Below are positions 51,536-64,000 of a stretch of 64,000 nucleotides of DNA, piece by piece. Each line of letters opens with the position of its first letter. Positions within the stretch are counted from its first letter, which is position 1. A program made the translations under genes and the position numbers. Below the pieces are notes generated by a model. It was not told where the DNA came from and did no database searches. It was given only the letters and a program-made list of their open reading frames with translations. The stretch spans positions 32,001-96,000 of the forward strand of contig JBBRLJ010000011.1 in NCBI GenBank assembly GCA_038231435.1, in the 5' to 3' direction. The stretch comes from Planctomycetota bacterium (GTDB taxonomy: Bacteria; Planctomycetota; UBA11346).

Positions 51536-52462
51536 CTAGCCGGGGTCTCTGCCTGCGCCCAGACCAGGCTTGGCCTGCCGGCGGAAATCGCGCGGGCTCA
51601 AGCCCGAGAAACGCTTGAAGGCGGTCGAGAACGCGAATTCATTGCGATATCCGATCCAATCGGCGATGCGCTTGAGTGGTTCGTCGGTCTCGCGCAGGAA
51701 CTGGCGCGCGCGCTCCATGCGCAGGCGCGTGACCATCGCCATCGGCTTGACGTCGAAATGGCGCGCGCACAGGCGGTACAGATTGATCTGCGATTCGTGC
51801 ACGTGTCCGGCCAGCGCGGCCACCGACCACGGATGGCGGAGATTGCGGTCGACCTCGTCCCACAGCTGCTGCAGGCGCCGGCGGATGGCGGCGGAGCGAG
51901 GATCGACATCGGCGGCGAGCTCACGCTCGAGGTAGCAGCCGATCAGCTCGGCGTTGAGCTCGACCGCGCGCCGCGCGCCGTCATCGCTGCCGCGCGCCTC
52001 GACGAGGAAGCCTTCCATCGCGGCCTGCAGGCGCGCGGTGAAGGCGGCGGCATGGATGACGGGGGCGCGACCACGCAGCGCCTGGCCGATGCCCGTCGAC
52101 AGCGCGAGGTGGAACCACAGCACCTGCCATCTGGCCGACCTGATGCCGTATGCGCATGGGGTGCCGGCGGGCACGATCAGCAGCTCGCCAGCGCCGATCT
52201 CGGCGGGACAGCCTGCTACATCGACCCAGCCGCTCCCGGCGACGGTGTACAGCGCGAGATGGAAGGTCGGCTGGGCGCGGCTGATCTCGTACGGCTTGAC
52301 CAGATCGCTGATGCCCGACCACATCACGCCGACATCGCGCAACGCCACCGCTGACTGGTGCTCGATCGCGAGGAAGCGCTCCTGGCAATCCGGCCCGATG
52401 ACGTGGAGCGTCTTCCGGGGAGACGGCGGAGAGTGCGGAGCGTCCACCATCGCTGATGGCAT
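51536..52462 (-). CDS. AraC-family transcriptional regulator
   Basis: N-terminal cupin-like domain; C-terminal 'RLRMERARQFL...IADWIGYRNEFAFSTAFKR.SGLSP..FR'. Confidence 0.93.
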   Translation of the reverse strand: MPSAMVDAPHSPPSPRKTLHVIGPDCQERFLAIEHQSAVALRDVGVMWSGISDLVKPYEISRAQPTFHLALYTVAGSGWVDVAGCPAEIGAGELLIVPAGTPCAYGIRSARWQVLWFHLALSTGIGQALRGRAPVIHAAAFTARLQAAMEGFLVEARGSDDGARRAVELNAELIGCYLERELAADVDPRSAAIRRRLQQLWDEVDRNLRHPWSVAALAGHVHESQINLYRLCARHFDVKPMAMVTRLRMERARQFLRETDEPLKRIADWIGYRNEFAFSTAFKRFSGLSPRDFRRQAKPGLGAGRDPG

Positions 52463-52557
52463 GGTGGAAGGATGGTGGCGGGTTCAACGGGGGAATGAGG
52501 GAAGCAGAGCGGAGAGCGGAGTGCCGAGAGCGCAGAAGAAAGCGCCAGGGAGCGATG

Positions 52558-54408
52558 TCAGCGCTTCACCTTGGCCCTCCGGCTCGAAGTCGCCTTGGTG
52601 GCGGCGGTGACGGATATCGGGGTGATGCCGGCCAGCTCGATCGCCGCTGGACGGGCCTGGGCCGCGCGCAGGCGCGCGAGATCGAGCTTGAGTGAGCGGT
52701 CGAAGCGGACCACGCCGTTCTGTTCCTGGAAGACGTCGGTGAGCTGGGTGTAGCAGTAACCGAACATCCGTGGGTCGTCGAGCAGCACCGCACAGAGCCC
52801 CGCGAAGCGTAGATGGAATTCCTCGACTGTCTGCGGCTTGTTGCCATAGCCCCAAGATGGTTCGCCCGGCTTGAGGTCGGGGTTCCACCAGATTCCGCCA
52901 AATTCGCTGACGAAATACGGCTGGCCGCGGTACGGGATGTTGTGCTGGCCGGGCGAATGATTGATGAACGGCTTGCCGATGCGCAGCCCGGCCTGGTTGA
53001 CCGCGAACGTAGCCGGATCCTGCTCGTAGTCGTGGCTGTCGTAGATGTCGCTCTCGGCAACGCGGTGCGAATACCCGGACACGTCGAGGACGGGCCGCGA
53101 GGTGTCCATCGCCTTGGTGGCCAGGTACAGCGCGCGCATCAGGTCGTCGTGGGCGTGGATGGTGTCCTCGATGCGGTACGAGGTCTCGTTCATCGGGCAC
53201 CAGCCGACGATCGACGGATGGGAATAATCCCGTTCCAGCGCCTCGAGCCATTGCGCCGCATACGTAGCGCCCCACTGCCGCTCATCGTGCAGGTGGCCGA
53301 GCGTGCTCCACGACCAGTCGCCGAATTCGCCCCAGCACAGGTAGCCCATGCGGTCGGCGTGGTACAAGAAGCGCTCCTCGAAGACTTTCTGGTGCAGTCG
53401 CGCGCCATTGAACCCAGCGGCAAGCGACAGCTCGATGTCCTTCACCAGCGCCTGGTCGGACGGCGCGGTCATGATGCCGTCGGGGTAGTAACCTTGGTCG
53501 AGCACCAGGCGCTGGAACACCGGCTTGCCATTGAGCACCACGGCCATGCCATCGATCGCCACCGAACGCAATCCGGCGTAGCTCTCGACGCGGTCGATGA
53601 TCACGCCAGACGAATTGCGCAGCTCGAGGCGCAGCGCGTACAGGTGCGGATCCCCGCACGACCACAAACGGCGGCGCGAGACCGGGATCGGCACCGTCAG
53701 GCGCGGCGACAGCTCGAGCCCGGTGGCGACCGTGGCCTTGGCGACCACGCCCTTCGCGTCCGAGAGCGTCGCGGTCACGGTCATGCCGCGCTCGACGCGC
53801 GTGAGCGGTTGCTCGAGATGGAAGCATCCGTTGGCGACGTCTGGCGTAATGCGCGTGCGCTCGAGCGCGCAAGCCGCGACCGGTTCCATCCATACCGTCT
53901 GCCAGATGCCGGTGGTGCGGGTGTAGTGGCATCCGCAGTTGCCGTGGATCGGCACCTGCTTGCCACGCGGCTGCGGCGGAGCCCAGTCGTCGCGTGCGCG
54001 CACCGTGACCACCGCCTTGGCGCCGGGCGCGACCGCGTCGGTGATGTCGCAGCGGAACGGCGTGAAGCCGCCGCGATGCCGGCCGACCTCGACGCCGTTC
54101 ACCCACACCGTGGCGTCGTAGTCCACCGCGCCGAAGTGCAGAACGATGCGCTTGCCCGCCCACGCCTCGGGCACCGGCACGCTGCGCCGGTACCACACCG
54201 CCAGCATGCGATCGGTGTACCCGATTCCCGACAGCGTCGATTCCGGGCAGAACGGCACGGTGATGGCGCGGTCGAACGGCCTCGACAGTCCGCGCTCGAA
54301 GCCGCTGTCGCCGTGATCGATCTCGAATTCCCATTGGCCATTCAGGCACAGCCACTCGTCGCGGCGGAACTGCGGACGGGGATATTCGCTACGCGGGATG
54401 GACGGCAT
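52558..54408 (-). CDS. Glycoside hydrolase family 2 (paralogue B)
   Basis: EYPRPQF, LNGQWEF, VPFCPES.LSG, HFGAVDY, TGIWQTVW.E, LDQGYYPDG, WCPMNE, SEFGG, GYCYTQLTDVFQE.NG. Confidence 0.93.
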   Translation of the reverse strand: MPSIPRSEYPRPQFRRDEWLCLNGQWEFEIDHGDSGFERGLSRPFDRAITVPFCPESTLSGIGYTDRMLAVWYRRSVPVPEAWAGKRIVLHFGAVDYDATVWVNGVEVGRHRGGFTPFRCDITDAVAPGAKAVVTVRARDDWAPPQPRGKQVPIHGNCGCHYTRTTGIWQTVWMEPVAACALERTRITPDVANGCFHLEQPLTRVERGMTVTATLSDAKGVVAKATVATGLELSPRLTVPIPVSRRRLWSCGDPHLYALRLELRNSSGVIIDRVESYAGLRSVAIDGMAVVLNGKPVFQRLVLDQGYYPDGIMTAPSDQALVKDIELSLAAGFNGARLHQKVFEERFLYHADRMGYLCWGEFGDWSWSTLGHLHDERQWGATYAAQWLEALERDYSHPSIVGWCPMNETSYRIEDTIHAHDDLMRALYLATKAMDTSRPVLDVSGYSHRVAESDIYDSHDYEQDPATFAVNQAGLRIGKPFINHSPGQHNIPYRGQPYFVSEFGGIWWNPDLKPGEPSWGYGNKPQTVEEFHLRFAGLCAVLLDDPRMFGYCYTQLTDVFQEQNGVVRFDRSLKLDLARLRAAQARPAAIELAGITPISVTAATKATSSRRAKVKR

Positions 54409-54458
54409 GGGGCTCCTCGATGCTTCACGGGTGCGGACGGATGCCGGGGCTCGCGCGG

Positions 54459-56327
54459 TCACGTTGATGCCTTCTTGAGTCGTGCGTTCAGTCGTGCGTT
54501 CAGTCGTGATGACTTCTTCGGCGCGCTGGCATCCGGCGAGACGCCGACCAGCTCGTACGCGGCGGGCCTGGCCTGCGCCGCGCGCAGGAGCGCGGGATCG
54601 AACTTCGTGCGGCGGTCGAAATGGAAGAGGCCGTTCTCCTCCTGGAAGACGTCGGTGAGCTGCGTGTAGCAGTAGCCAAATACCTCGGGCGCGTCGAGCA
54701 GCGCGCCGCACAGCGTCTCGAAGCGTTCGATGAACTCGGCGACCGACTTCGGCCGCTCACCGTACCCCCACGACGCATCCCCAGCCTTGGCCTCTGGATT
54801 CCACCATGCGCCGCCGAACTCGCTGATGAAGAACGGCTGTCCGCGGTACGGGATGTTCAGGTCCGGCCAGACGTTTGGCTTTCCCTCCGCGAGCCCGGCG
54901 ATGTTCTCGCGCAGCTTCGCGGGATCCTGGTCGTAATAGTGCATGTCGTAGACATCGCTGTCCGGGACGCGGTGCGAGAAGCCCGAGATGTCGAGCACGG
55001 GCCGCGAACGGTCTGCCGACTTGGTGGCGAGATACATCGCCCGCACCAGATCGTCGACCGCGGTGATGCGCTCATCGTTTTTCTGCTTCTGCTCGTTCAG
55101 CGGGCACCAGCCGATGATCGATGGATGCGAATAGTCGCGCTCGACCGCCTCGAGCCATTGCGCGACGAAGGTGGAACCCGAGCGGTGATGCTCGTTCTGC
55201 CAGCCGGGCAGGTGCGCGCCCCAATCCCCGAACTCCCCCCAGCACAGGTAGCCGAGGCGGTCGGCGTGGTGCAGGAAGCGCTCCTCGAAGACCTTTTGGT
55301 GCAGGCGGGCACCGTTGAAACCGGCGGATTTCGCCAGCTCGATGTCACGGATCAACGCCGCGTCGCTGGGTGCGGTCATGAGTCCGTCCGGCCACCATCC
55401 CTGGTCGAGCACCAGGCGTTGAAACACGCGTTCGCCGTTGATGACCATGGCCCGGCCCTCGATGCGCACCGAGCGGAGCCCGGCGTAGCTATCGACGCGG
55501 TCGACCACCACGCCCTGCGCGTCGACGAGTTCGATGATCAGGTCGTAGAGGTGCGGATCGGCGGGCGACCACAGGCGGACGCGGCTTTCTGGGATGTCGA
55601 GCTCGAGCGCCGGCGCGAAATCGCCATCGGCCCTCACCGTGGCGGTGGCGACCACGCCCTTGGAGTCGCGTGCGGTCGCCCGCGCGCGCAGGCCGGTGGC
55701 ATCGCCGTTGATCGGGAGCTCGAGCCTGAAGCGGCTGGCGCCGACATCCGGCGTGATGCGCGGCCGGCGCAGATGCGTGCGGTTGACCGCCTCGAGCCAG
55801 ACCGTCTGCCAGATGCCGGTGGTGCGGGCATACAGGCAGCCGGAATTGCCGAACGCCTGCGACTGCTTGCCGCGCGCCTGCGGGGGGCGCCAATCGTCGC
55901 GGGCCCGCACCACGATCTCGGCGACTCCGCCGGGCTCGACGACGCCGCGCAGATCGCAGCTGAAGGGCGTGAAGCCGCCGCGGTGGCGCGCGACCTCGAT
56001 CCCGTTCACCCACACCGTCGCATCGTGGTCGACGGCCTGGAAGTGCAGCACCACGTCGCGACCCGCCCAGGCGCGCGGCACCTCGACAGAGCGACGGTAC
56101 CACACCGCCAGCACGCGGTCGACATGGCCGATGCCGGAGAGCGCGGACTCCGGGCAGAACGGCACGGTGATGCGCTCGGCGAGCGAGCGCTTGTCCATCC
56201 CGCGGTCGAGCCCGGTGTCGCCCGGGTCCATCTCGAACTGCCATTCCCCATTGAGCGAGAGCCAGCGCGAGCGCACGAACTGCGGGCGCGGATGCTCGGG
56301 ACGTGGGATGCTCGGTGACTTTGGCAT
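54459..56327 (-). CDS. Glycoside hydrolase family 2 (paralogue A)
   Basis: EHPRPQF, VPFCPES.LSG, TGIWQTVWLE, LDQGWWPDG, WCPLNE, SEFGG, GYCYTQLTDVFQEENG. Confidence 0.93.
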   Translation of the reverse strand: MPKSPSIPRPEHPRPQFVRSRWLSLNGEWQFEMDPGDTGLDRGMDKRSLAERITVPFCPESALSGIGHVDRVLAVWYRRSVEVPRAWAGRDVVLHFQAVDHDATVWVNGIEVARHRGGFTPFSCDLRGVVEPGGVAEIVVRARDDWRPPQARGKQSQAFGNSGCLYARTTGIWQTVWLEAVNRTHLRRPRITPDVGASRFRLELPINGDATGLRARATARDSKGVVATATVRADGDFAPALELDIPESRVRLWSPADPHLYDLIIELVDAQGVVVDRVDSYAGLRSVRIEGRAMVINGERVFQRLVLDQGWWPDGLMTAPSDAALIRDIELAKSAGFNGARLHQKVFEERFLHHADRLGYLCWGEFGDWGAHLPGWQNEHHRSGSTFVAQWLEAVERDYSHPSIIGWCPLNEQKQKNDERITAVDDLVRAMYLATKSADRSRPVLDISGFSHRVPDSDVYDMHYYDQDPAKLRENIAGLAEGKPNVWPDLNIPYRGQPFFISEFGGAWWNPEAKAGDASWGYGERPKSVAEFIERFETLCGALLDAPEVFGYCYTQLTDVFQEENGLFHFDRRTKFDPALLRAAQARPAAYELVGVSPDASAPKKSSRLNARLNARLKKAST

Positions 56328-56574: not shown

Positions 56575-57399
56575 ATGGCGTCCTGGGCGTTCGCGATCCG
56601 TGGTGAAGTGCCGCGCTGGGCCACCATCGTGCTCGGCCTGGTGCCGATAGCCCTGCTGCTGGGGCTGTGGTGGGGCATCACCCACGGCGAACCCGAGGAG
56701 CGGCGCGTCAGCCCCACCATCCTGCCCAGCCCGGGCGAGGTGTTCAGCTACCTGCCCCAGTTGCTGACCCACAAGGGCGAGAACAACCAGGGCAACTTCC
56801 TGTTCCACAACGTGTGGGCGAGCGGCAAGCGCGTCATCAAGGGCTTCCTGCTGGCCCTGGTCATCGTCATGCCGATCGGCATCGGCATGGGCGCCTTCGC
56901 CAGCATCCGTGCCACCTTCGGCTCGTTGATGACCGCGAGCGGCTATATTCCCATCGCCACCCTGGTGCCATTGACCATGTCGTGGTTCGGCACCGACGAG
57001 AAGCAGAAGGTCATCTTCCTGGCCATGGCCTTCGGCATCTACCTGCTGCCGCTGGTGGTGAAGGCCATCGATGGCGTGCCAGATGTGTTCCTGCGCACCG
57101 CCCAGACCCTCGGCGCCACCCGTGCGCAGATCGTCACCCGCGTGCTGGTACCCATCGCCATGCCCGACCTGTGGCATGCCATGCGCCTGGCCTTCGGTGT
57201 CGGCTGGACCTACATCGTGCTCACCGAGGCGTTGGTGCAGACCGACGGCCTCGGCTACCTGATCGAGATCGCGCGCCGCCGCGGCCCGCGCGAGCAGATC
57301 TACCTGGTGATCATGATCATCACCATCATCGCATGGTTCGCCGACCAGCTGTGGATGCGGATCGGCCGCTGGCTCTTCCCGTACCGGCAGGCGCGCTGA
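56575..57399 (+). CDS. ABC transporter permease, SsuC/TauC/NtrB type
   Basis: ILPSPGEV, IP.A.LVPL...WFG.DE.QK, AQTLGA EAA-loop, GLGYLI. Confidence 0.92.
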   Translation: MASWAFAIRGEVPRWATIVLGLVPIALLLGLWWGITHGEPEERRVSPTILPSPGEVFSYLPQLLTHKGENNQGNFLFHNVWASGKRVIKGFLLALVIVMPIGIGMGAFASIRATFGSLMTASGYIPIATLVPLTMSWFGTDEKQKVIFLAMAFGIYLLPLVVKAIDGVPDVFLRTAQTLGATRAQIVTRVLVPIAMPDLWHAMRLAFGVGWTYIVLTEALVQTDGLGYLIEIARRRGPREQIYLVIMIITIIAWFADQLWMRIGRWLFPYRQAR

Positions 57400-58286
57400 T
57401 GGCCGCCGCGATACCACCGCTTCATCCCACGCAGAGCGCGGCGCCGGCCACGGCCCCGCCGCCGATCGTCGAGTTCCGTAACGTCACCATGCGCTTCGGC
57501 GACTTCGTCGCCCTGCACGACGTGTCCTTCCGCATCGAGGACGTGCCCGATCGCGGCGAGTTCGTGACCATGCTCGGGCCCTCGGGCTGCGGCAAGAGCA
57601 CGGTGCTGAACCTCATCACCGGTTTCCTGCAGCCGAGTTCGGGTGAAGTACTGGTGCATGGCAAGCCGGTGGACGGCCCCACCCGCGACCGCGGCATGAT
57701 CTTCCAGCAGTACAGCTCGTTCCCCCACCTCACGGTACTCGACAACGTGCGCTTCGGCTTGGATCTCAACCGCCATGAGCTCAAGCTCGATGGCAAGATG
57801 CGCCACGAGCGCGCCATGGATCTGATCGGCCAGGTCGGCTTGGCCGGGCACGAGTCAAAGTACCCGCACCAGCTCTCGGGAGGTCAGCAGCAGCGTGTCG
57901 CGATCGCGCGATCACTCGCGCTCGAACCGCGCATCCTGCTGATGGACGAGCCGTTCTCGGCGCTCGATGAACCGACGCGCATCGAGATGCAGGAGCTGGT
58001 GGTGGGGCTGTGGAACCGCATCAAGCCGACGGTGTTCTGCGTCACCCACAGCATCACCGAAGCGGTGTACCTCGGCGAGCGGGTGTGGATCTTCGCGGCC
58101 AATCCCGGGCAGATCGTCTACGACATCCGCGATCCGATCCCGCCCTCGCCTGGCATCTCGCCGATGACCGCGCAGGAGCTGCCCGCGTTCAAGCAGGCGG
58201 CGAAGGTGGTGGGCGAGGCCTTCCGGCATGTCGCCGACAACCGCCGTCCGGCTGGCGGGCAGCCTGCCTCCGGGGGCGGGGGCTGA
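57399..58286 (+). CDS. ABC transporter ATP-binding protein, SsuB/TauB type
   Basis: GPSGCGKST, YPHQLSGGQQQRVAIAR, LMDEPFSALD, VTHSITEAV; TGATG coupling. Confidence 0.95.
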   Translation: MAAAIPPLHPTQSAAPATAPPPIVEFRNVTMRFGDFVALHDVSFRIEDVPDRGEFVTMLGPSGCGKSTVLNLITGFLQPSSGEVLVHGKPVDGPTRDRGMIFQQYSSFPHLTVLDNVRFGLDLNRHELKLDGKMRHERAMDLIGQVGLAGHESKYPHQLSGGQQQRVAIARSLALEPRILLMDEPFSALDEPTRIEMQELVVGLWNRIKPTVFCVTHSITEAVYLGERVWIFAANPGQIVYDIRDPIPPSPGISPMTAQELPAFKQAAKVVGEAFRHVADNRRPAGGQPASGGGG

Positions 58287-59155
58287 TGGCCTCGGCTCCC
58301 GGGCTGATGGATTACGTCTCGGCGGCGTTCAACGCGCGGCCAGTCGGGATGTTCGTGCCGCCGAACTGGGTCGGTGTCGCCGCCTTCGGCATGCTCGGTT
58401 TGATCAATCCCGGGCTATGGGTGGTCGGCGCGGGGCTCGAACTCGGCTACCTGTTCTGGCTGGTCCACGAACCCCGCTTCCGCCACATTGTCGAGGGCAG
58501 GGTGGTGGACGCCACCCAGCAGGAATGGCAATTGAAGATCGCGTCGCAGGTGTCGCGGCTGAGTCAGAAGAACCGCGGCAAGTATCAGAATCTCGAATCG
58601 CGCTGCCTCGCGATCATCGACCAGCAAGGCCAGGCAAATGCCGGAGCGTCGGGGCTCGACACCCAGGCCGACGGCCTGAGCCGCCTGCTGTGGATCTACC
58701 TGAGGCTGCTGCAGACCCGCGAATCGATCGCGCGCATCGACGATGGCGCGCCCAGCGCCGATGGCGAGCGCGAGCGTCTCGAGGAGCGCGCCCAGGCGCT
58801 GGCCAAGCAGCTGAAGGATGCGTCGTTGGCCGACGATCTGCGCAAGAGCCTCTCCGGCCAGCTCGACATCGTGCAGCAGCGCCTCGCGAAGCGTAAGGAA
58901 GCCGCGTCCAAGGGCGCGTTCGTCGAAGCCGAAATCCAACGCATCGAGGAGCAGGTCGAGCTGATCCGCGAACAGGCGATGCTCGCTTCCGATCCGCAGA
59001 GCGTGTCGCAGCGTATCGACGAGGTGGCCGCCACCCTGGGCGGCACCAGCGATTGGATCCGCGACCAGCAGCAGGTGTTCGGCCAGGTCGAGGACCTGAT
59101 CAGCGCGCCGCCGCCGCTGGTGAGCGCGAAGGTCCGCGAACGGCAGGCGAATTGA
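58286..59155 (+). CDS. Uncharacterised protein: two N-terminal TM helices plus long coiled coil
   Basis: 'PPNWVGVAAFGMLGLINPGLWVVGAGLELGYLFWL', then heptad-rich 'ERLEERAQALAKQL...EAEIQRIEEQVELIREQA'; TGATG coupling. Confidence 0.85.
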   Translation: MASAPGLMDYVSAAFNARPVGMFVPPNWVGVAAFGMLGLINPGLWVVGAGLELGYLFWLVHEPRFRHIVEGRVVDATQQEWQLKIASQVSRLSQKNRGKYQNLESRCLAIIDQQGQANAGASGLDTQADGLSRLLWIYLRLLQTRESIARIDDGAPSADGERERLEERAQALAKQLKDASLADDLRKSLSGQLDIVQQRLAKRKEAASKGAFVEAEIQRIEEQVELIREQAMLASDPQSVSQRIDEVAATLGGTSDWIRDQQQVFGQVEDLISAPPPLVSAKVRERQAN

Positions 59156-59248
59156 GATATCATTGCGATCCCTCTCCAGTGCCCCTTTCATCAGCACTCT
59201 CTTATCAGTGCCTCTTCTCACCGTGCCCATAGTGAATGAGCGAGCGAC

Positions 59249-59908
59249 ATGAGCATCATCGATCAGCTGCGCGCCGTCGGTGGCCGCCTCGGCATCCTGC
59301 AGATCGAGCAGCCGAAGACCGCCAAGACGCTGACCAAGGTGGTCACGCGTGTCCTCACCCTGGCCGAGCTCGAGAGCGAGGTCGCAGTCGCCGGTGGCGC
59401 GCTGCAGGCGCGCGAGCGCGCTGAGCTGACCAATGATTTCATGGGTATCTGCACCGCTGCCGGCGTCCTCGAGCCGAAGCACGGCTGGACCATCGAACGC
59501 CTCGAACACGAACTTCGCCAACCGACCTTCGCCGGGCTCCAGCGCGCCGCCGCCCAGGCCGCCATCCTCGAGAGTCTGCGCGCCGCCGGCGTCCCGGTCG
59601 AGGACGTGGTTCGCGACGCGGTCGCCCGCGACCAGGCCGTCGACGCGTATGCCGCCGGCATCCGCGAGCAGCTCGCGAGACGTGGCCGGGCCCGCGGCGA
59701 ACGCCGCGCCGCCATTGCCCAGGAGATCGCCCGCCTCACCGCCGAACGCGATCAGCTCGAGACCGCCCATGCCGCCGAGCGCGAACGCTGGCGCGCCTGG
59801 TGGGCCCTCAAGCACGAGAACGAGGTCGCCATGGCCTGGGCCCTGAGCCACCTCCTCGATCAGCCGCTGGTGTCGGTCGACTCGACCCCGCCATCGATCG
59901 ACAGCTGA
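59249..59908 (+). CDS. Uncharacterised coiled-coil protein
   Basis: 'HGWTIERL', 'DVVRDAVARDQAVDAY', coiled coil 'IAQEIARLTAERDQLE', 'W.AW...K..E'. Confidence 0.8.
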   Translation: MSIIDQLRAVGGRLGILQIEQPKTAKTLTKVVTRVLTLAELESEVAVAGGALQARERAELTNDFMGICTAAGVLEPKHGWTIERLEHELRQPTFAGLQRAAAQAAILESLRAAGVPVEDVVRDAVARDQAVDAYAAGIREQLARRGRARGERRAAIAQEIARLTAERDQLETAHAAERERWRAWWALKHENEVAMAWALSHLLDQPLVSVDSTPPSIDS

Positions 59909-60172
59909 GTGTTCTGGCGCCGTTCCGACGGGACGGATGGCTGGAGATAGGGTTCGGCGAGCGGACCACCGCCGATGACGACCTGGAGTGTTGCCCAGCC
60001 ACGCATTCGCCACGCATCCGCGCCCCGCGCCGAAGGCCTCCACGGGCCCCGGGCGCCAACTAACAGTTTGCACACCCGCCTCGCAGGCGAATAACATCAC
60101 CTCCCGCGGGAAACCGCGTATCGCACGGCGCCTGGCAATTCGCCGGGCGCCGGATCCTTCGAGGAGCGCATC

Positions 60173-61993
60173 ATGGCCGATGACAAATCAGCGGGCCTCA
60201 CCGGGCTTGGCAAATTCCTCTCCTTCATCGTCATCATCGGGCTGATCGGCCTCGGCGTCTGGATCTTCCAGCGCCAGGAGGCTGCGCACGCGCAGGGTGC
60301 GGCGAATCCAGCCACCGGTACGGCTACGACCACCGCGGGCGCGGCCACCGGCGGCGGCACCACTGCGGCTGCCGCGGGCGGAACCGCCGCCGCTGTCGCC
60401 GCGGGAACCGCCGGAGCGACTCCTGCGGGGGCCGGGCTCGAGGCTCCCGACGCCGGCAGCGTCACCACGGTGAAGGAATACAAGTTCGTGCCCGCGGAGA
60501 AGCTGCCGCCGGTGAAGGGCGTCAGCCAATACAAGTGGAACGAGGCCGACAAGGTCCTGCGCTTCACCTATAACGTCTGGTCGGGCTGGCTGCCGGTGGT
60601 GGCAGCCAACCACGGCACCAAGGCCAACACCGACAGCCTCTTCTTCAAGAAGCACGGCTTCAAGGTCGAGATGGTGCTGATGGACGACCCGGTCGCGGCG
60701 CGCGACGCTTACGCCTCGGGCGACGTGCACACCCTGTGGGGCACCGTCGACATGATGGTGCTGTTCGCCCCCGAGCTGGCCCGCGATTCGCGCACCGCGC
60801 CGCGCATCGTCCAGCAGCTCGACTGGTCCAACGGCGGCGACGGCATCGTCGTGCGCAAGGCGATCCGCACGGTCAAGGACCTCAAGGGCAAGACCGTCGC
60901 TCTCGCGCAGAATTCGCCCAGCGAGTACTACCTCACTTCGCTGCTGCTGTCGGCTGGCATGAAGCCCGCAGACATCAAGACCAAGTACACCGCCACCGCC
61001 TTCGAGGCCGCCGCGGCGTTCGTCAGCGATCCTTCGATCGACGCCACCGTCTCGTGGTCGCCAGACATCTACAACATCGTCGACCGCGTCGCCGACACCA
61101 AGATCCTCTCATCCACCGCCGATGCCAACAAGCTGATCGCCGACGTCTACGCGGTGCGCGCTGATTTCACCCGCGACCATCCGGATGTCGTCCAGGGCCT
61201 GGTCGAGGGCATCCTCGAAGGCATGGACGAGGTGAAGAAGAATCCCGAACAGGCGTGCGCCTGGATGGCCGACGCATTCGGCATGAAGCCCTCCGACGTC
61301 ATGGCGATGCGCAACGATGCGCACCCGACCAACGCCGCCGAGAACGCCCAGTTCTTCCTGAATTCGTCGAATCCGACCAACTTCGAACGCACCTGGAAGA
61401 GCGCGAGCTACGTCTACCGCGAGCTCGGTCGCATCAACGCCCCGGCGCTGTTCGATCAGGTGATGGACTTCACCTACATCCAGAAGGCCCAGGCCTCGGG
61501 CACCTTCAGCTCGCAGAAGGACGAGAGCGTGGCCACCTTCACGCCCTCGACCCCGAAGAAGGTCAGCGCCGAGGCCCCGATCCTCACCCAGACCATCCGC
61601 ATCAACTTCTATCCGAACTCGTCGAATCCCTTCGAGCCGGCGCGCGACGACGTGGGCATGGTCCAATCCGGCAAACTCTACGATCCGAACGTCACCTCGA
61701 CGCTCGAGCAGGTCGGTCGCCTGGCCGGCCAGTTCGCGCGCGCCACCATCCTGATCCAGGGCTTCACCGACGATAGCATGCGCGGCAAGGTTCCCGAGAA
61801 GGAAGTGAAGCTGCTGAGCACCGAGCGCGCCGAGGCGATCAAGCGCTCGCTCATCGACAAGTTCAAGTTCGACCCGAACAAGTTCGTCATCGAGGGCAAG
61901 GGCTGGGAAACCCCAGCCGACGCCTCGGACCCGCACAACAACTCGCTCAACCGGCGCGTCGAGATCAGCGTCTACCCCCCGGAAGAGAAGTAA
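60173..61993 (+). CDS. Membrane-anchored NMT1/SsuA-like substrate-binding protein fused to a C-terminal OmpA-like domain
   Basis: GAGGAG RBS; TM anchor; Ala/Thr/Gly linker; SBP motifs 'WSGWLP', 'DWSNGGDGIV', 'DLKGKTVA'; OmpA-like 'INF..NS...QGFTD...LSTERAEAIK...GKG...NRRVEI'. Confidence 0.9.
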   Translation: MADDKSAGLTGLGKFLSFIVIIGLIGLGVWIFQRQEAAHAQGAANPATGTATTTAGAATGGGTTAAAAGGTAAAVAAGTAGATPAGAGLEAPDAGSVTTVKEYKFVPAEKLPPVKGVSQYKWNEADKVLRFTYNVWSGWLPVVAANHGTKANTDSLFFKKHGFKVEMVLMDDPVAARDAYASGDVHTLWGTVDMMVLFAPELARDSRTAPRIVQQLDWSNGGDGIVVRKAIRTVKDLKGKTVALAQNSPSEYYLTSLLLSAGMKPADIKTKYTATAFEAAAAFVSDPSIDATVSWSPDIYNIVDRVADTKILSSTADANKLIADVYAVRADFTRDHPDVVQGLVEGILEGMDEVKKNPEQACAWMADAFGMKPSDVMAMRNDAHPTNAAENAQFFLNSSNPTNFERTWKSASYVYRELGRINAPALFDQVMDFTYIQKAQASGTFSSQKDESVATFTPSTPKKVSAEAPILTQTIRINFYPNSSNPFEPARDDVGMVQSGKLYDPNVTSTLEQVGRLAGQFARATILIQGFTDDSMRGKVPEKEVKLLSTERAEAIKRSLIDKFKFDPNKFVIEGKGWETPADASDPHNNSLNRRVEISVYPPEEK

Positions 61994-62049
61994 GCCTTCA
62001 CCGCATTAACAACCGGTACCGGACCATTCGACCTTCGATCGGAGCCACC

Positions 62050-62811
62050 ATGTTCAGCCGCATCGCCAACCTCTTCCGGGGATTCCTGGGACTCTTCGTC
62101 TCGGGTCTCGAGCGCCGCAATCCAGAGGCGCTGCTCGAGGTCGAGCAGGAGAACCTGCGCAAGCAGATCGCCCAGTACAACCAGGGCCTGGCCTCGCACG
62201 CGGGCATGTGCGAGCGGCTGATGTCCCAGGTGAAGAAGCTCGAGATCGAGGAGCGCGATCTGCGCGCCAAGACCGCCGCCAACCTCAAGGTCGGCAATCG
62301 CGCCGCCGCGGGCCAGTACGCCTTGCGCCTGCAGACGGTCACCCGCGAGCTCGACGAGAACCGCGCGCAGCTCGAGCAGGCCGAGACCACCTACAAGGAC
62401 CTGACCAAGGCCCGCGACATCGCCATCTCCACCGCCAAGTCCAAGCTCGAGAGCCTCAAGGGCGCGATCCAGGACATGAAGATGAAGAAGGCCATGGCCG
62501 AGATGAACGAGATGGCCTCGGGCATGATCTCGAACATCGGCGGCGCCGGCGACACGCTCAACCGCCTGCAGACCATGGTCGAGGACGAGCGCACCAAGGC
62601 GGCCGGCCGCGCGCGCGTCGCCAAGGACTCGATCAACATGAACGACGTCAACCTCAAGGAATCCGAGCAGTCGGCGCTCGCCGACCAGGCGCTCGCCGAT
62701 TTCGCCGCCAAAGAAGGCATGGCCTTCGAGGGCGGGCCGGCGGTGGGGACAGCGGCGCCTGCGGCGCAGAAGAGCATGGGTCCGGCCACCGGCGAGAGCG
62801 CGTCCACCTGA
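62050..62811 (+). CDS. PspA/IM30 (Vipp1/ESCRT-III superfamily) protein
   Basis: GGAG RBS; amphipathic N-terminal helix MFSRIANLFRGFL, 'LERRNPEALLE', long coiled coil with 'A.A.LK.G.RAAA..YA', 'DTLNRLQTMVEDE..KA.GRA', 'ALADF'. Confidence 0.9.
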   Translation: MFSRIANLFRGFLGLFVSGLERRNPEALLEVEQENLRKQIAQYNQGLASHAGMCERLMSQVKKLEIEERDLRAKTAANLKVGNRAAAGQYALRLQTVTRELDENRAQLEQAETTYKDLTKARDIAISTAKSKLESLKGAIQDMKMKKAMAEMNEMASGMISNIGGAGDTLNRLQTMVEDERTKAAGRARVAKDSINMNDVNLKESEQSALADQALADFAAKEGMAFEGGPAVGTAAPAAQKSMGPATGESAST

Positions 62812-62812
62812 C

Positions 62813-64000
62813 ATGCCGACACCGGCGACGCCCATCAGCGCCCGTCAGCGCCTGCAGGCCATGGGCCTGCCACGCTGGGCCGAGGATCTGATCACCCAGT
62901 ACGAGAGCGGCGCCACCAGCCAGTTCCTGTGCTATGGCAACGTCAACGACCGGCTGCTGCTTCCGCTCTCGGGTAAGGCTCCAGCGCACGAGGAGCTCGG
63001 CGGCTTCACCGATTTCCTGGTCAAGGTATTGCTGCCACGCTTCGACGTGGTGCTGAGCTTCGATCTCGGCAACGGTCTGCGCCTCGAAAAAGGCGGCGAT
63101 GTCTTCAGCCAATGGCCGCGCCTGAAAGGCGTCGAGCTGCCGCCGCTGCCAAAGACCCCGCGCGAGGCCATCGACTACCTGACCCAGTACTTCCGCTACT
63201 GCGCCAACCTGGCGAAGCTCGGCACCTCGCGCCTGCAGATCGGCTGTCTGATCAAGGGTGCGGATCTGCTGGTACCGGCCTCGATGGGCGCGAACAGCTA
63301 CGACACCAGCGCGCTCGCCAGCCAGATGCGCGACTGGGCGGCCGATGGCACGCTCAGCGGCCATACCCTGGCGACCTTCCTGATCGCCGACAACCTCAAT
63401 GACCTGCATCCGCTGATCGTCAACAATCCGCGGGCCTCGCAGGCCAAGGTCCCTCTGCCGTCGGCCGACGATCTCGCGCGGGCCCTCGCGTTGATGGCTC
63501 CGAGCTACCCGGTCGCGCTCGGCGCTTTGGCTAAGGATCTGCCCGCGACCGCCGCAGGCCTCGCAGGCGCCACGCTCAGCTCGATCGAGGCCCTGCTCAA
63601 GACCAAGGAGCACCTCGGCGAGGCGCTGTCGACCGATGATCTGGTGGCCGTGAAGAAGGCCCTGGTCGAGAAGGACTGTGCCGGACTGATCGAATTCATC
63701 GATTCGAAGCGCACCCTCGATGACATCCATGGCCAAGAGAAGTTGAAGGCTTGGCTGCGCCAGGACATCGCGCTGTGGCGCGCGGGTGACGTGCAAGCGC
63801 TGCCAATGGGGTACCTGGTGTGCGGCCCTGTCGGCACCGGCAAGACCTACCTGGTCGAATGCCTCGCGGGAGAGGCCGGCGTTCCGGTGGTGAAGCTCAA
63901 GAATTTCCGCGACAAATGGGTTGGTTCGACCGAGGGCAACCTCGAGAAGATCTTTCGCCTGATCCACGCTCTCGGGCGCGCCTTCGTGTTCATCGACGAG
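62813..64000 (+). CDS. Classical-clade AAA+ ATPase with degenerate N-terminal domain (Ycf46-like architecture), partial
   Basis: Manual translation is open from ATG 62813 to the window end (396 codons): LPRWAEDLITQYESGATSQFLCYGNVND...; Walker A GPVGTGKT, pore loop RDKWVGSTEGN, Walker B FVFIDE at the very end. Missing from the ORF track. Confidence 0.92.
   Translation, partial: MPTPATPISARQRLQAMGLPRWAEDLITQYESGATSQFLCYGNVNDRLLLPLSGKAPAHEELGGFTDFLVKVLLPRFDVVLSFDLGNGLRLEKGGDVFSQWPRLKGVELPPLPKTPREAIDYLTQYFRYCANLAKLGTSRLQIGCLIKGADLLVPASMGANSYDTSALASQMRDWAADGTLSGHTLATFLIADNLNDLHPLIVNNPRASQAKVPLPSADDLARALALMAPSYPVALGALAKDLPATAAGLAGATLSSIEALLKTKEHLGEALSTDDLVAVKKALVEKDCAGLIEFIDSKRTLDDIHGQEKLKAWLRQDIALWRAGDVQALPMGYLVCGPVGTGKTYLVECLAGEAGVPVVKLKNFRDKWVGSTEGNLEKIFRLIHALGRAFVFIDE

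What the first reader, a model, noticed from the sequence alone, without database searches (positions are those of the whole stretch)
56575..64000. Candidate membrane-remodelling system: PspA/ESCRT-III + AAA+ ATPase + ABC importer + SBP-OmpA fusion + two coiled-coil proteins in one operon
Seen: seven co-oriented genes; the first three are TGATG-coupled and the last two are 1 bp apart. They encode an SsuC-type permease, an SsuB-type ATPase, a 2-TM coiled-coil protein, a soluble coiled-coil protein, an SBP-OmpA fusion, a PspA/IM30 protein and an AAA+ ATPase. No pspB, pspC, pspF or liaRS-like genes are in the window. Established: PspA/Vipp1 are ESCRT-III superfamily membrane-binding polymers, and eukaryotic/archaeal ESCRT-III is recycled by the AAA+ ATPase Vps4. 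Inference: this is not a simple sulfonate or nitrate importer but an envelope-stress or membrane-remodelling module in which a cell-wall-tethered SBP/ABC complex senses or imports a ligand, the TM coiled-coil protein recruits PspA, and the AAA+ disassembles it. I know of no functional characterisation of this combination, but comparative-genomic surveys may already list it.
Basis: partly seen in the sequence, partly recalled or inferred. Interest (0 to 1): 0.9.

Follow-up and report, generated by a model that had tools for sequence, protein, structure and literature searches.

The report
Mosaic PspA–ATPase envelope operon
This is a real seven-gene bacterial cluster that joins a membrane-repair protein (PspA) and its own protein-unfolding ATPase to a cell-wall-tethered receptor and importer; the cluster type was described from genome comparisons in 2024 and I found no experimental test of it, and this copy shows that PspA and the ATPase were swapped in together as a pair.

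Summary
All seven genes, their domains and couplings are real. The system is not new: Ravi et al. 2024 (PMC11237479) list PspA, PBPB+OmpA, permease, ABC ATPase, TM-'Snf7' and a tandem AAA+ ATPase in one operon and propose the same Vps4 analogy. This scan noted it before in at least 9 other genomes. My literature searches found no experiment.

What this copy adds: it is a mosaic. Genes 1-5 belong to one lineage; PspA and the ATPase come together from another (reciprocal AU tests, p about 1e-4). Trees suggest three such exchanges. In 301 genomes all 41 with this PspA type also had the ATPase. Binding proteins of two different families share one N-terminal anchor motif (55 of 56 and 22 of 22), and the ABC genes are often absent, which favours a receptor over a plain importer. 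A PspA-ATPase complex got weak support only (0.36, best control 0.00). The ATPase resembles VAT/Cdc48, not Vps4. Disassembly of PspA is inferred, not shown.

The parts
56575..57399 (+). g1: ABC permease, TauC/SsuC type, 274 aa
   Evidence: PF00528 46.8 bits; best NCBIfam SaoP/TauC about 108 bits, far under their cut-offs
57399..58286 (+). g2: ABC ATPase, TauB/SsuB type, 295 aa; Walker A, signature, Walker B and H-loop readable in the sequence
   Evidence: PF00005 111.7 bits; sequence
58286..59155 (+). g3: membrane-anchored helical protein, 289 aa (hydrophobic hairpin, then a helical bundle); most likely the 'SIG+TM+Snf7' gene of Ravi et al.; lead to PspM (Rv2743c)
   Evidence: Model pLDDT 88.5; no significant fold match; ESM Atlas nearest named cluster PF25587 at 0.87, family on 40% of members; 2,619 clusters at 50% identity with E up to 0.001
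59249..59908 (+). g4: soluble helical protein, 219 aa: N-terminal amphipathic helix, small helical domain, 87-residue helix; accessory, travels with the ABC-type receptor block
   Evidence: Model pLDDT 82.6; best Z 5.5; no Pfam on 15 homologues; hydrophobic moment 0.48, homologue median 0.56, background 95th percentile 0.51
60173..61993 (+). g5: N-terminal anchor motif + TM helix, Ala/Gly/Thr linker, NMT1/SsuA-type binding domain, OmpA-like wall-binding domain, 606 aa
   Evidence: PF09084 55.4 and PF00691 37.7 bits; D533 and R552 invariant in 26 rows; best PDB hit Omp38 OmpA domain, then SsuA and TauA; anchor motif
62050..62811 (+). g6: PspA/IM30 protein, 253 aa, amphipathic N-terminal helix and a conserved C-terminal K-x-[MI]-G-P tail; the only PF04012 match in the genome
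   Evidence: PF04012 over cut-off; tail motif in 94 of 101 homologues; G244 and P245 nearly invariant
62813..64000 (+). g7: classical AAA+ ATPase, 573 aa (runs on to G000:C11:96534); N-terminal half without Walker motifs, C-terminal domain intact
   Evidence: PF00004 82.1 bits; Walker A, Walker B DE, pore loop WVG and R452/R455 invariant in 46 rows; best PDB hits VAT, Cdc48, p97
59909..60172 (.). 264-base gap between g4 and g5, where the commonest relatives carry their own PspA; no remnant, RNA family or terminator found

Best explanation
A member of the PspA / tandem-AAA / TM-helical / binding-protein operons of Ravi et al. 2024, built from two exchangeable blocks. Receptor block: a membrane-anchored periplasmic binding protein (g5, tethered to the wall by its OmpA domain) works with the membrane protein g3, here with g4 and an ABC importer. 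Effector block: PspA and its own AAA+ unfoldase. Shown here: gene content, co-occurrence, intact ATPase motifs, the paired exchange of PspA and ATPase, the shared anchor motif. Inferred: the binding protein reports a ligand or wall state through its anchor to g3; PspA then polymerises on the inner membrane; the ATPase grips PspA, probably by its conserved C-terminal tail, and strips subunits off, doing the job Vps4 does for ESCRT-III although it descends from a VAT/Cdc48-like line. The ligand is unknown; the ABC pair probably imports or clears it. Odds: about 0.9 for membership of the described module, about 0.5 for the mechanism as a whole.
For: Same six components, and in L226 the same order as the published example. 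PspA is in 64 of the 80 loci nearest the ATPase. 14 of the 80 loci nearest g5 hold all seven genes in the order g1-g2-g3-AAA-g4-PspA-g5; only 18 of the 80 had 4.5 kb upstream. In 301 genomes of the phylum: ATPase 46, PspA 41 (all 41 with the ATPase; about 6 expected by chance, but kin are not independent), TM 37 (36 with it), close g5 homologues 26 (24 with it). Window PspA and ATPase group with lineage B (99/96 and 99), g3 and g5 with lineage A (100/100); AU tests reject each block's grouping on the other's data (p 7.3e-5; 9.4e-5). Anchor motif in 55 of 56 NMT1-OmpA proteins and 22 of 22 SBP_bac_11-type proteins of ABC-less loci, 0 of 21 SBP-vWA, 1 of 492 background ORFs (g5 itself). PspA-ATPase complex: weak support, 0.36 against a best control of 0.00, runs agree in at least 82% of contacts, partner pLDDT at least 59; the mark was reached by 116 of 157 solved complexes and 2 of 215 mismatches, but at 0.60 or under by only 18 of the 157 and by both mismatches.
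Against: No experiment found. A weak pass like one search is more often wrong than right unless likely beforehand, and gave no interface. In 13 of the 41 genomes PspA and the ATPase lie on different contigs, and 5 of 46 ATPase genomes had no PspA at E 1e-8. The dead N-terminal AAA domain was not confirmed: profile score 22.9, reached by 2 of 30 shuffles. The anchor motif is degenerate or missing in several distant binding proteins (L054, L181, L185, L187, L227, L228). The AU tests include long branches (L054, L179). Binding to an AAA+ protein need not mean disassembly: E. coli PspA binds PspF, which is a regulatory pairing (PMC7619361).
Confidence: 0.5

Rival explanations
1. PspA is the regulator and the ATPase the effector, as in PspA-PspF: PspA holds the ATPase in check until it is drawn to the membrane, and the freed ATPase remodels another client such as the g3-g5 complex or damaged membrane proteins.
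For: Explains the paired inheritance and the weak complex score equally well; PspA-PspF is an established pairing (PMC7619361); the closest solved relatives (VAT, Cdc48, p97) are general unfoldases.
Against: PspF is a transcription activator of another AAA+ clade, whereas g7 has an invariant substrate-threading pore loop. The PspA tail motif sits where ESCRT-III proteins carry their ATPase-recruiting elements (PMC7619361; motif).
Confidence: 0.22
2. The operon is centred on transport: an importer for an unknown small molecule, with PspA and the ATPase serving its assembly or limiting leaks.
For: Permease and ABC ATPase look intact and are 56-73% identical across lineage A; the binding domain is very conserved (mean column identity 74%); Ravi et al. 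suggest a link to solute transport.
Against: Only 3 of the 80 loci nearest the ATPase have a g1-like permease hit; anchored binding proteins sit beside the TM gene without ABC genes in L185, L218, L229 and L230; PspA-ATPase dyads stand alone in many loci.
Confidence: 0.14
3. A defence system against phage or membrane-attacking molecules, triggered by a periplasmic receptor.
For: Patchy spread (46 of 301 genomes), repeated exchange of receptor blocks, and more than one receptor block in some genomes such as G023.
Against: PADLOC gives only generic ATPase matches and none for g1 or g3-g6; no close plasmid copy (5 distant half-length hits). It need not exclude the best explanation, as it concerns the trigger.
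Confidence: 0.1
4. Chance neighbours: an importer operon next to an unrelated PspA-ATPase pair.
For: The two blocks have different ancestries here and lie apart in G218 and G271.
Against: The blocks are joined in several gene orders and lineages; 24 of 26 genomes with a close g5 homologue and 36 of 37 with the TM gene also have the ATPase; published independently.
Confidence: 0.03

Closest known systems
[quoted passage not shown] 2024, mSystems, PMC11237479; example OGG56892.1)
   Same: Six of the seven genes match by domain content; the same Vps4 analogy and transport link are proposed. L226 shows the published order with homologues of all window genes.
   Different: Other gene order; extra g4; PspA and ATPase from a different lineage than genes 1-5. 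The passages I read do not mention vWA-type receptor blocks (0 hits in the main text), the anchor motif or the exchange of blocks; their web app was not seen. The 'Snf7' label was not confirmed here.
Archaeal and eukaryotic ESCRT-III with Vps4 (CdvB/CdvC)
   Same: An ESCRT-III-superfamily polymer protein tied to a classical AAA+ ATPase with a threading pore loop; a conserved tail on the polymer protein.
   Different: No MIT domain; about 290 other residues precede the ATPase domain; CDC48 model 65.8 bits against CdvC 31.5; best PDB hits VAT/Cdc48/p97; disassembly untested.
Mycobacterial ClgR-PspA-PspM system
   Same: PspA with a two-helix membrane protein; PspM keeps one PspA form at the membrane (PMC13622631, preprint); g3's nearest named ESM Atlas cluster is PF25587 (0.87).
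   Different: The PF25587 model does not hit g3 or its 44 + 12 scanned homologues among the listed families; no ClgR-like gene among the seven; there is an ATPase and a periplasmic receptor.
TauABC / SsuABC importers
   Same: Permease, ATPase and binding-domain families.
   Different: All scores far under the equivalog cut-offs; binding protein is TM-anchored and fused to OmpA; no sulfonate-cleaving enzyme among the seven genes.
E. coli PspABC/PspF and B. subtilis Lia systems
   Same: PspA-family effector with a membrane partner.
   Different: No PspB or PspC in the genome; no sigma-54 activator or HisKA_3 kinase on this contig.

Membership tests
Ravi et al. 2024 PspA/AAA/ABC/PBPB-OmpA operon | PspA gene | tested here: met
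   PF04012 37.2 bits, cut-off 33.9
Ravi et al. 2024 PspA/AAA/ABC/PBPB-OmpA operon | Signal/TM + PBPB + OmpA fusion | tested here: met
   PF09084 and PF00691 over cut-off; N-terminal TM
Ravi et al. 2024 PspA/AAA/ABC/PBPB-OmpA operon | ABC permease and ABC ATPase | tested here: met
   PF00528, PF00005
Ravi et al. 2024 PspA/AAA/ABC/PBPB-OmpA operon | Membrane-anchored helical protein in the operon | tested here: met
   g3 model; a homologue holds the published position between ABC ATPase and AAA in L226
Ravi et al. 2024 PspA/AAA/ABC/PBPB-OmpA operon | That protein carries a divergent Snf7 domain | tested here: inconclusive
   PF03357 no match in the genome, but the model passed its cut-off in no control genome either; profile against PspA 2%; Foldseek CdvB2 at rank 19, E 1.1, TM 0.22
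Ravi et al. 2024 PspA/AAA/ABC/PBPB-OmpA operon | Classical AAA+ domain, active, C-terminal | tested here: met
   PF00004 at 335-461; catalytic motifs invariant
Ravi et al. 2024 PspA/AAA/ABC/PBPB-OmpA operon | Inactive N-terminal AAA+ domain | tested here: inconclusive
   Collinear alignment to the C-terminal half over 194 columns, score 22.9, reached by 2 of 30 shuffles; no model of it was fold-searched
Ravi et al. 2024 PspA/AAA/ABC/PBPB-OmpA operon | Direct sequence likeness to the published example OGG56892.1 | not tested
   The record was not fetched
Vps4/CdvC with ESCRT-III | N-terminal MIT domain on the ATPase | tested here: not met
   PF04212 has no hit at g7 and none over cut-off in the genome; it passes in 2 control genomes
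Vps4/CdvC with ESCRT-III | ATPase closest to Vps4 | tested here: not met
   The 60 best PDB rows are VAT, Cdc48/p97 and their two-ring relatives; CdvC 31.5 bits against cut-off 650
Vps4/CdvC with ESCRT-III | Threading pore loop and arginine fingers | tested here: met
   W369-V370-G371, R452, R455 invariant in 46 rows
Vps4/CdvC with ESCRT-III | ATP-driven disassembly of the polymer | not testable with these tools
   Only a weak complex prediction
PspM (Rv2743c, PF25587) | g3 homologous to PspM | tested here: inconclusive
   ESM Atlas 0.87 with 184 shared features, 8 of the ten best named hits in the same family; no HMM hit at g3
TauABC/SsuABC | Equivalog-level scores | tested here: not met
   TauC 108 of 342, TauB 207 of 357, SsuA 75 of 163.5 bits
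PspABC/PspF and Lia | PspB, PspC, PspF or LiaS nearby | tested here: not met
   (genome 88% complete)

The most novel reading that the evidence does not exclude
Bacteria have their own working counterpart of Vps4: a VAT/Cdc48-like ATPase that grips the conserved C-terminal tail of its cognate PspA and takes the polymer apart. It is the output of a new kind of trans-envelope signalling, in which interchangeable periplasmic receptors (NMT1-OmpA, with or without an ABC importer, or SBP_bac_11 with SBP-vWA) plug into one PspA-ATPase pair through a shared membrane anchor and a PspM-like membrane protein.
Probability: 0.35. Interest if true: 0.85.

Novelty: new member of a known kind. Interest (0 to 1): 0.48.

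Why it matters
A 2025 review states that a Vps4-like ATPase appears absent in bacteria (PMC7619361), so how PspA-type polymers are taken apart is open. This operon type is a direct candidate, though already named as such in 2024. This copy makes the test sharper: PspA and the ATPase were exchanged together, so lineage A and B pairs give cognate and non-cognate controls; the PspA tail and the receptor anchor are short motifs to mutate. If the ATPase proves not to act on PspA, it remains a widespread, uncharacterised envelope system with two protein families (g3, g4) that have no Pfam model.

Tried and rejected
Split at 59909-60172: no terminator or promoter match, no Rfam hit, no remnant of a lost PspA or ATPase in the four gaps. 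g3 as Snf7/ESCRT-III: no fold match at E 0.001; best wide-search Z 9.5 (rmsd 3.4, 125 aligned) to a designed helical bundle, no ESCRT-III among the 50 rows; this does not exclude it. g3 as PspM or XpaC by HMM: neither among the listed families; the XpaC idea was recalled and a paper search for it found 0 papers. g4: only generic long-helix matches, best Z 5.5; its small N-terminal domain was barely tested; ESM Atlas gave unnamed clusters only. Dead N-terminal AAA domain: not significant. Ligand of g5: SsuA and TauA are the nearest solved binding proteins (E 2e-10, 1.5e-9), too distant to name one. Known defence system: generic ATPase hits only. Expression: no RNA holder listed. Plasmid copy: none covering 80%. 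Rows left out: cuts that duplicated other loci, one locus with an identical ATPase (58 to 57 rows), 5 fragment ORFs of 48 in the motif count. The motif was sought in the first 30 residues (lineage A), first 90 (lineage B ORFs, starts unsure) and first 45 (background).
Full report
1. Observation. The seven ORFs, both TGATG overlaps and the 1-bp gap are as described. Pfam confirms permease, ABC ATPase, NMT1-type binding domain plus OmpA, PspA and AAA; g3 and g4 have no family. The ATPase is 573 aa and ends 534 bases past the window; the clear genes beyond it are on the other strand. g6 is the genome's only PF04012 match. PspB and PspC were not found in this 88% complete genome, and no sigma-54 activator or HisKA_3 match lies on this contig. 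Nothing splits the run at 59909-60172. The nearest ATPase relative (81%) is titled Planctomycetota, so the host is probably of that phylum (inference).

2. Already in print. Ravi et al. 2024 (PMC11237479; I read the abstract, passages, part 1 of section 16 and supplement passages) describe PspA with an ATPase of two AAA+ domains, the first inactive, a membrane-anchored 'Snf7' protein and, in longer operons, an ABC ATPase, a permease and a PBPB+OmpA protein. They propose ATP-dependent membrane remodelling like Snf7-Vps4, linked to solute transport. L226 has homologues of the window's genes in their published order, followed by a g4 homologue. Seven paper searches gave no experiment on it; the library lacks most subscription journals. 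A 2025 review (PMC7619361, passages) says a Vps4-like ATPase appears absent in bacteria. Passages of a 2026 review (PMC13051332) mention Vps4 only for eukaryotes and archaea. Earlier notes of this scan hold the same module in at least 9 genomes; I had found the paper before looking.

3. Neighbourhoods. Among the 80 loci nearest the ATPase: PspA 64, g3-like 41, SBP-OmpA 3, g4 1 (many contigs are short). 27 of them carry other binding proteins, an SBP_bac_11-type protein and an SBP-vWA fusion, and many have only the PspA-ATPase dyad. I call this lineage B. Among the 80 loci nearest g5, 14 hold all seven genes as g1-g2-g3-AAA-g4-PspA-g5; only 18 had 4.5 kb upstream, and metagenome loci may be near-copies. 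There g1, g2, g3 and the g5 binding domain are 56-68%, 66-73%, 49-54% and 75-80% identical to the window's, but PspA and ATPase only 35-39%. This is lineage A. In an even sample of 301 genomes of the phylum: ATPase 46, PspA 41, TM 37, close g5 homologues 26; all 41, 36 of 37 and 24 of 26 have the ATPase. PspA and ATPase are adjacent in 14, within 10 kb in 28, on different contigs in 13. Kin are not independent.

4. The window is a mosaic. Its PspA and ATPase sit in lineage B (99/96 and 99), its g3 with lineage A (100/100), its g5 nested in A behind two outgroups whose ATPases are A-type. On 18 loci, the receptor genes reject the PspA-ATPase grouping (p 7.3e-5) and PspA plus ATPase reject the receptor grouping (p 9.4e-5); long branches are present, but the raw identities say the same. 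The window's order recurs complete in L037 and G017. L054 and L185 look like two further, separate exchanges to B-type PspA-ATPase (quick trees). G218 and G271 carry an A-type receptor block and a B-type dyad at separate places, a plausible halfway state; G023 has two receptor blocks and one dyad. So PspA and the ATPase travel as a pair, and g3 travels with the binding protein.

5. Anatomy. ATPase: Walker A and B, a WVG pore loop and arginine fingers are invariant in 46 rows; the best solved relatives are VAT, Cdc48 and p97; no MIT domain. Its N-terminal half aligns collinearly with the C-terminal half but not significantly. PspA has an amphipathic N-terminal helix and a K-x-[MI]-G-P tail after a variable linker in 94 of 101 homologues. 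A PspA-ATPase complex got weak support: 0.36, best control 0.00, contacts agreeing at 82% or more, partner pLDDT at least 59; 116 of 157 solved and 2 of 215 mismatched pairs reach the mark, but at 0.60 or under only 18 of the 157 and both mismatches. g3 is a hydrophobic hairpin plus helical bundle; the Snf7 label was not confirmed. Its nearest named look-alike is PspM at 0.87, unsupported by HMM; PspM keeps one PspA form at the membrane (PMC13622631, preprint, passages). g4 has an N-terminal amphipathic helix and an 87-residue helix, with no fold match. g5 keeps the invariant Asp and Arg of its OmpA domain (that these bind the wall peptide is recalled). Its N-terminal [LVI]-T-x-x-G-[KR] motif before the TM helix is shared by 55 of 56 lineage A proteins and 22 of 22 SBP_bac_11-type proteins of lineage B, but 0 of 21 SBP-vWA and 1 of 492 background ORFs, g5 itself. 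It fades in several distant homologues.

6. Mechanism. Most likely (0.5): receptor block, then PspA polymer on the inner membrane, then ATPase-driven recycling. The constant anchor under changing ligand heads, and the frequent lack of ABC genes, point to signalling through the membrane rather than uptake as the core. Rivals: PspA restrains an ATPase that acts on other clients (0.22); transport is the purpose (0.14); defence (0.10); chance (0.03). Every step from ligand to disassembly is inferred.

7. Verdict. Real, conserved, already described in silico and untested as far as I could find; not a Vps4 orthologue. This copy is a new member whose mosaic make-up adds evidence that PspA and the ATPase are cognate partners and supplies controls for the experiment. 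I found the block exchange and the anchor motif neither in the passages read nor in this scan's notes; the authors' web tables were not seen. Interest 0.48.

Noticed in passing
L001:2640-2665 (just after g7, G000:C11 about 96640): A G/C-run hairpin between convergent genes; the pattern has 152 matches over both strands of the genome, like a REP-type repeat. A similar stretch seems to lie near window 49950 (from translations, not checked).
   Followed up: partly
window 51536-56327, - strand: Two tandem glycoside-hydrolase-like genes and an AraC-like regulator point away from the operon across a 247-base gap; named from reading the sequence only.
   Followed up: no
L001:2670-6409, - strand: A RuvX/YqgF-like gene and a 1069-aa Ser/Thr kinase-like gene follow the operon; named from reading the sequence only.
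   Followed up: no
L055:11747-12379 and similar Thermoanaerobaculia loci: A conserved 210-aa protein without a Pfam match follows PspA-TM-ATPase in these loci.
   Followed up: partly
L006:5465-8372, L222, L224, L225: ABC-less variant: SBP-vWA fusion plus anchored SBP_bac_11-type protein beside the TM gene, with or without PspA-ATPase next to it.
   Followed up: yes
L082, L135, L218: Receptor blocks without PspA or ATPase in the locus; L082 also lacks g3 and L218 lacks the ABC genes.
   Followed up: partly
G085:C3:32979-33497 and C3:1267987-1268229: PspA matches in two pieces (profile 77-249 and 1-81) 1.2 Mb apart: a rearrangement or an assembly fault.
   Followed up: no
G289:C130, G302:C6, G026:C222, L036, L005: ATPase or binding-protein matches with an internal stop, split or shortened.
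   Followed up: no
window about 61763 (g5 residue 531): The OmpA motif reads GFTD here where the other rows have GHxD.
   Followed up: no
L072:7995-8840, L078:3-629: Weak g4-like hits (about 25-30 bits) just upstream of lineage B PspA, so g4 may have distant relatives outside lineage A.
   Followed up: no
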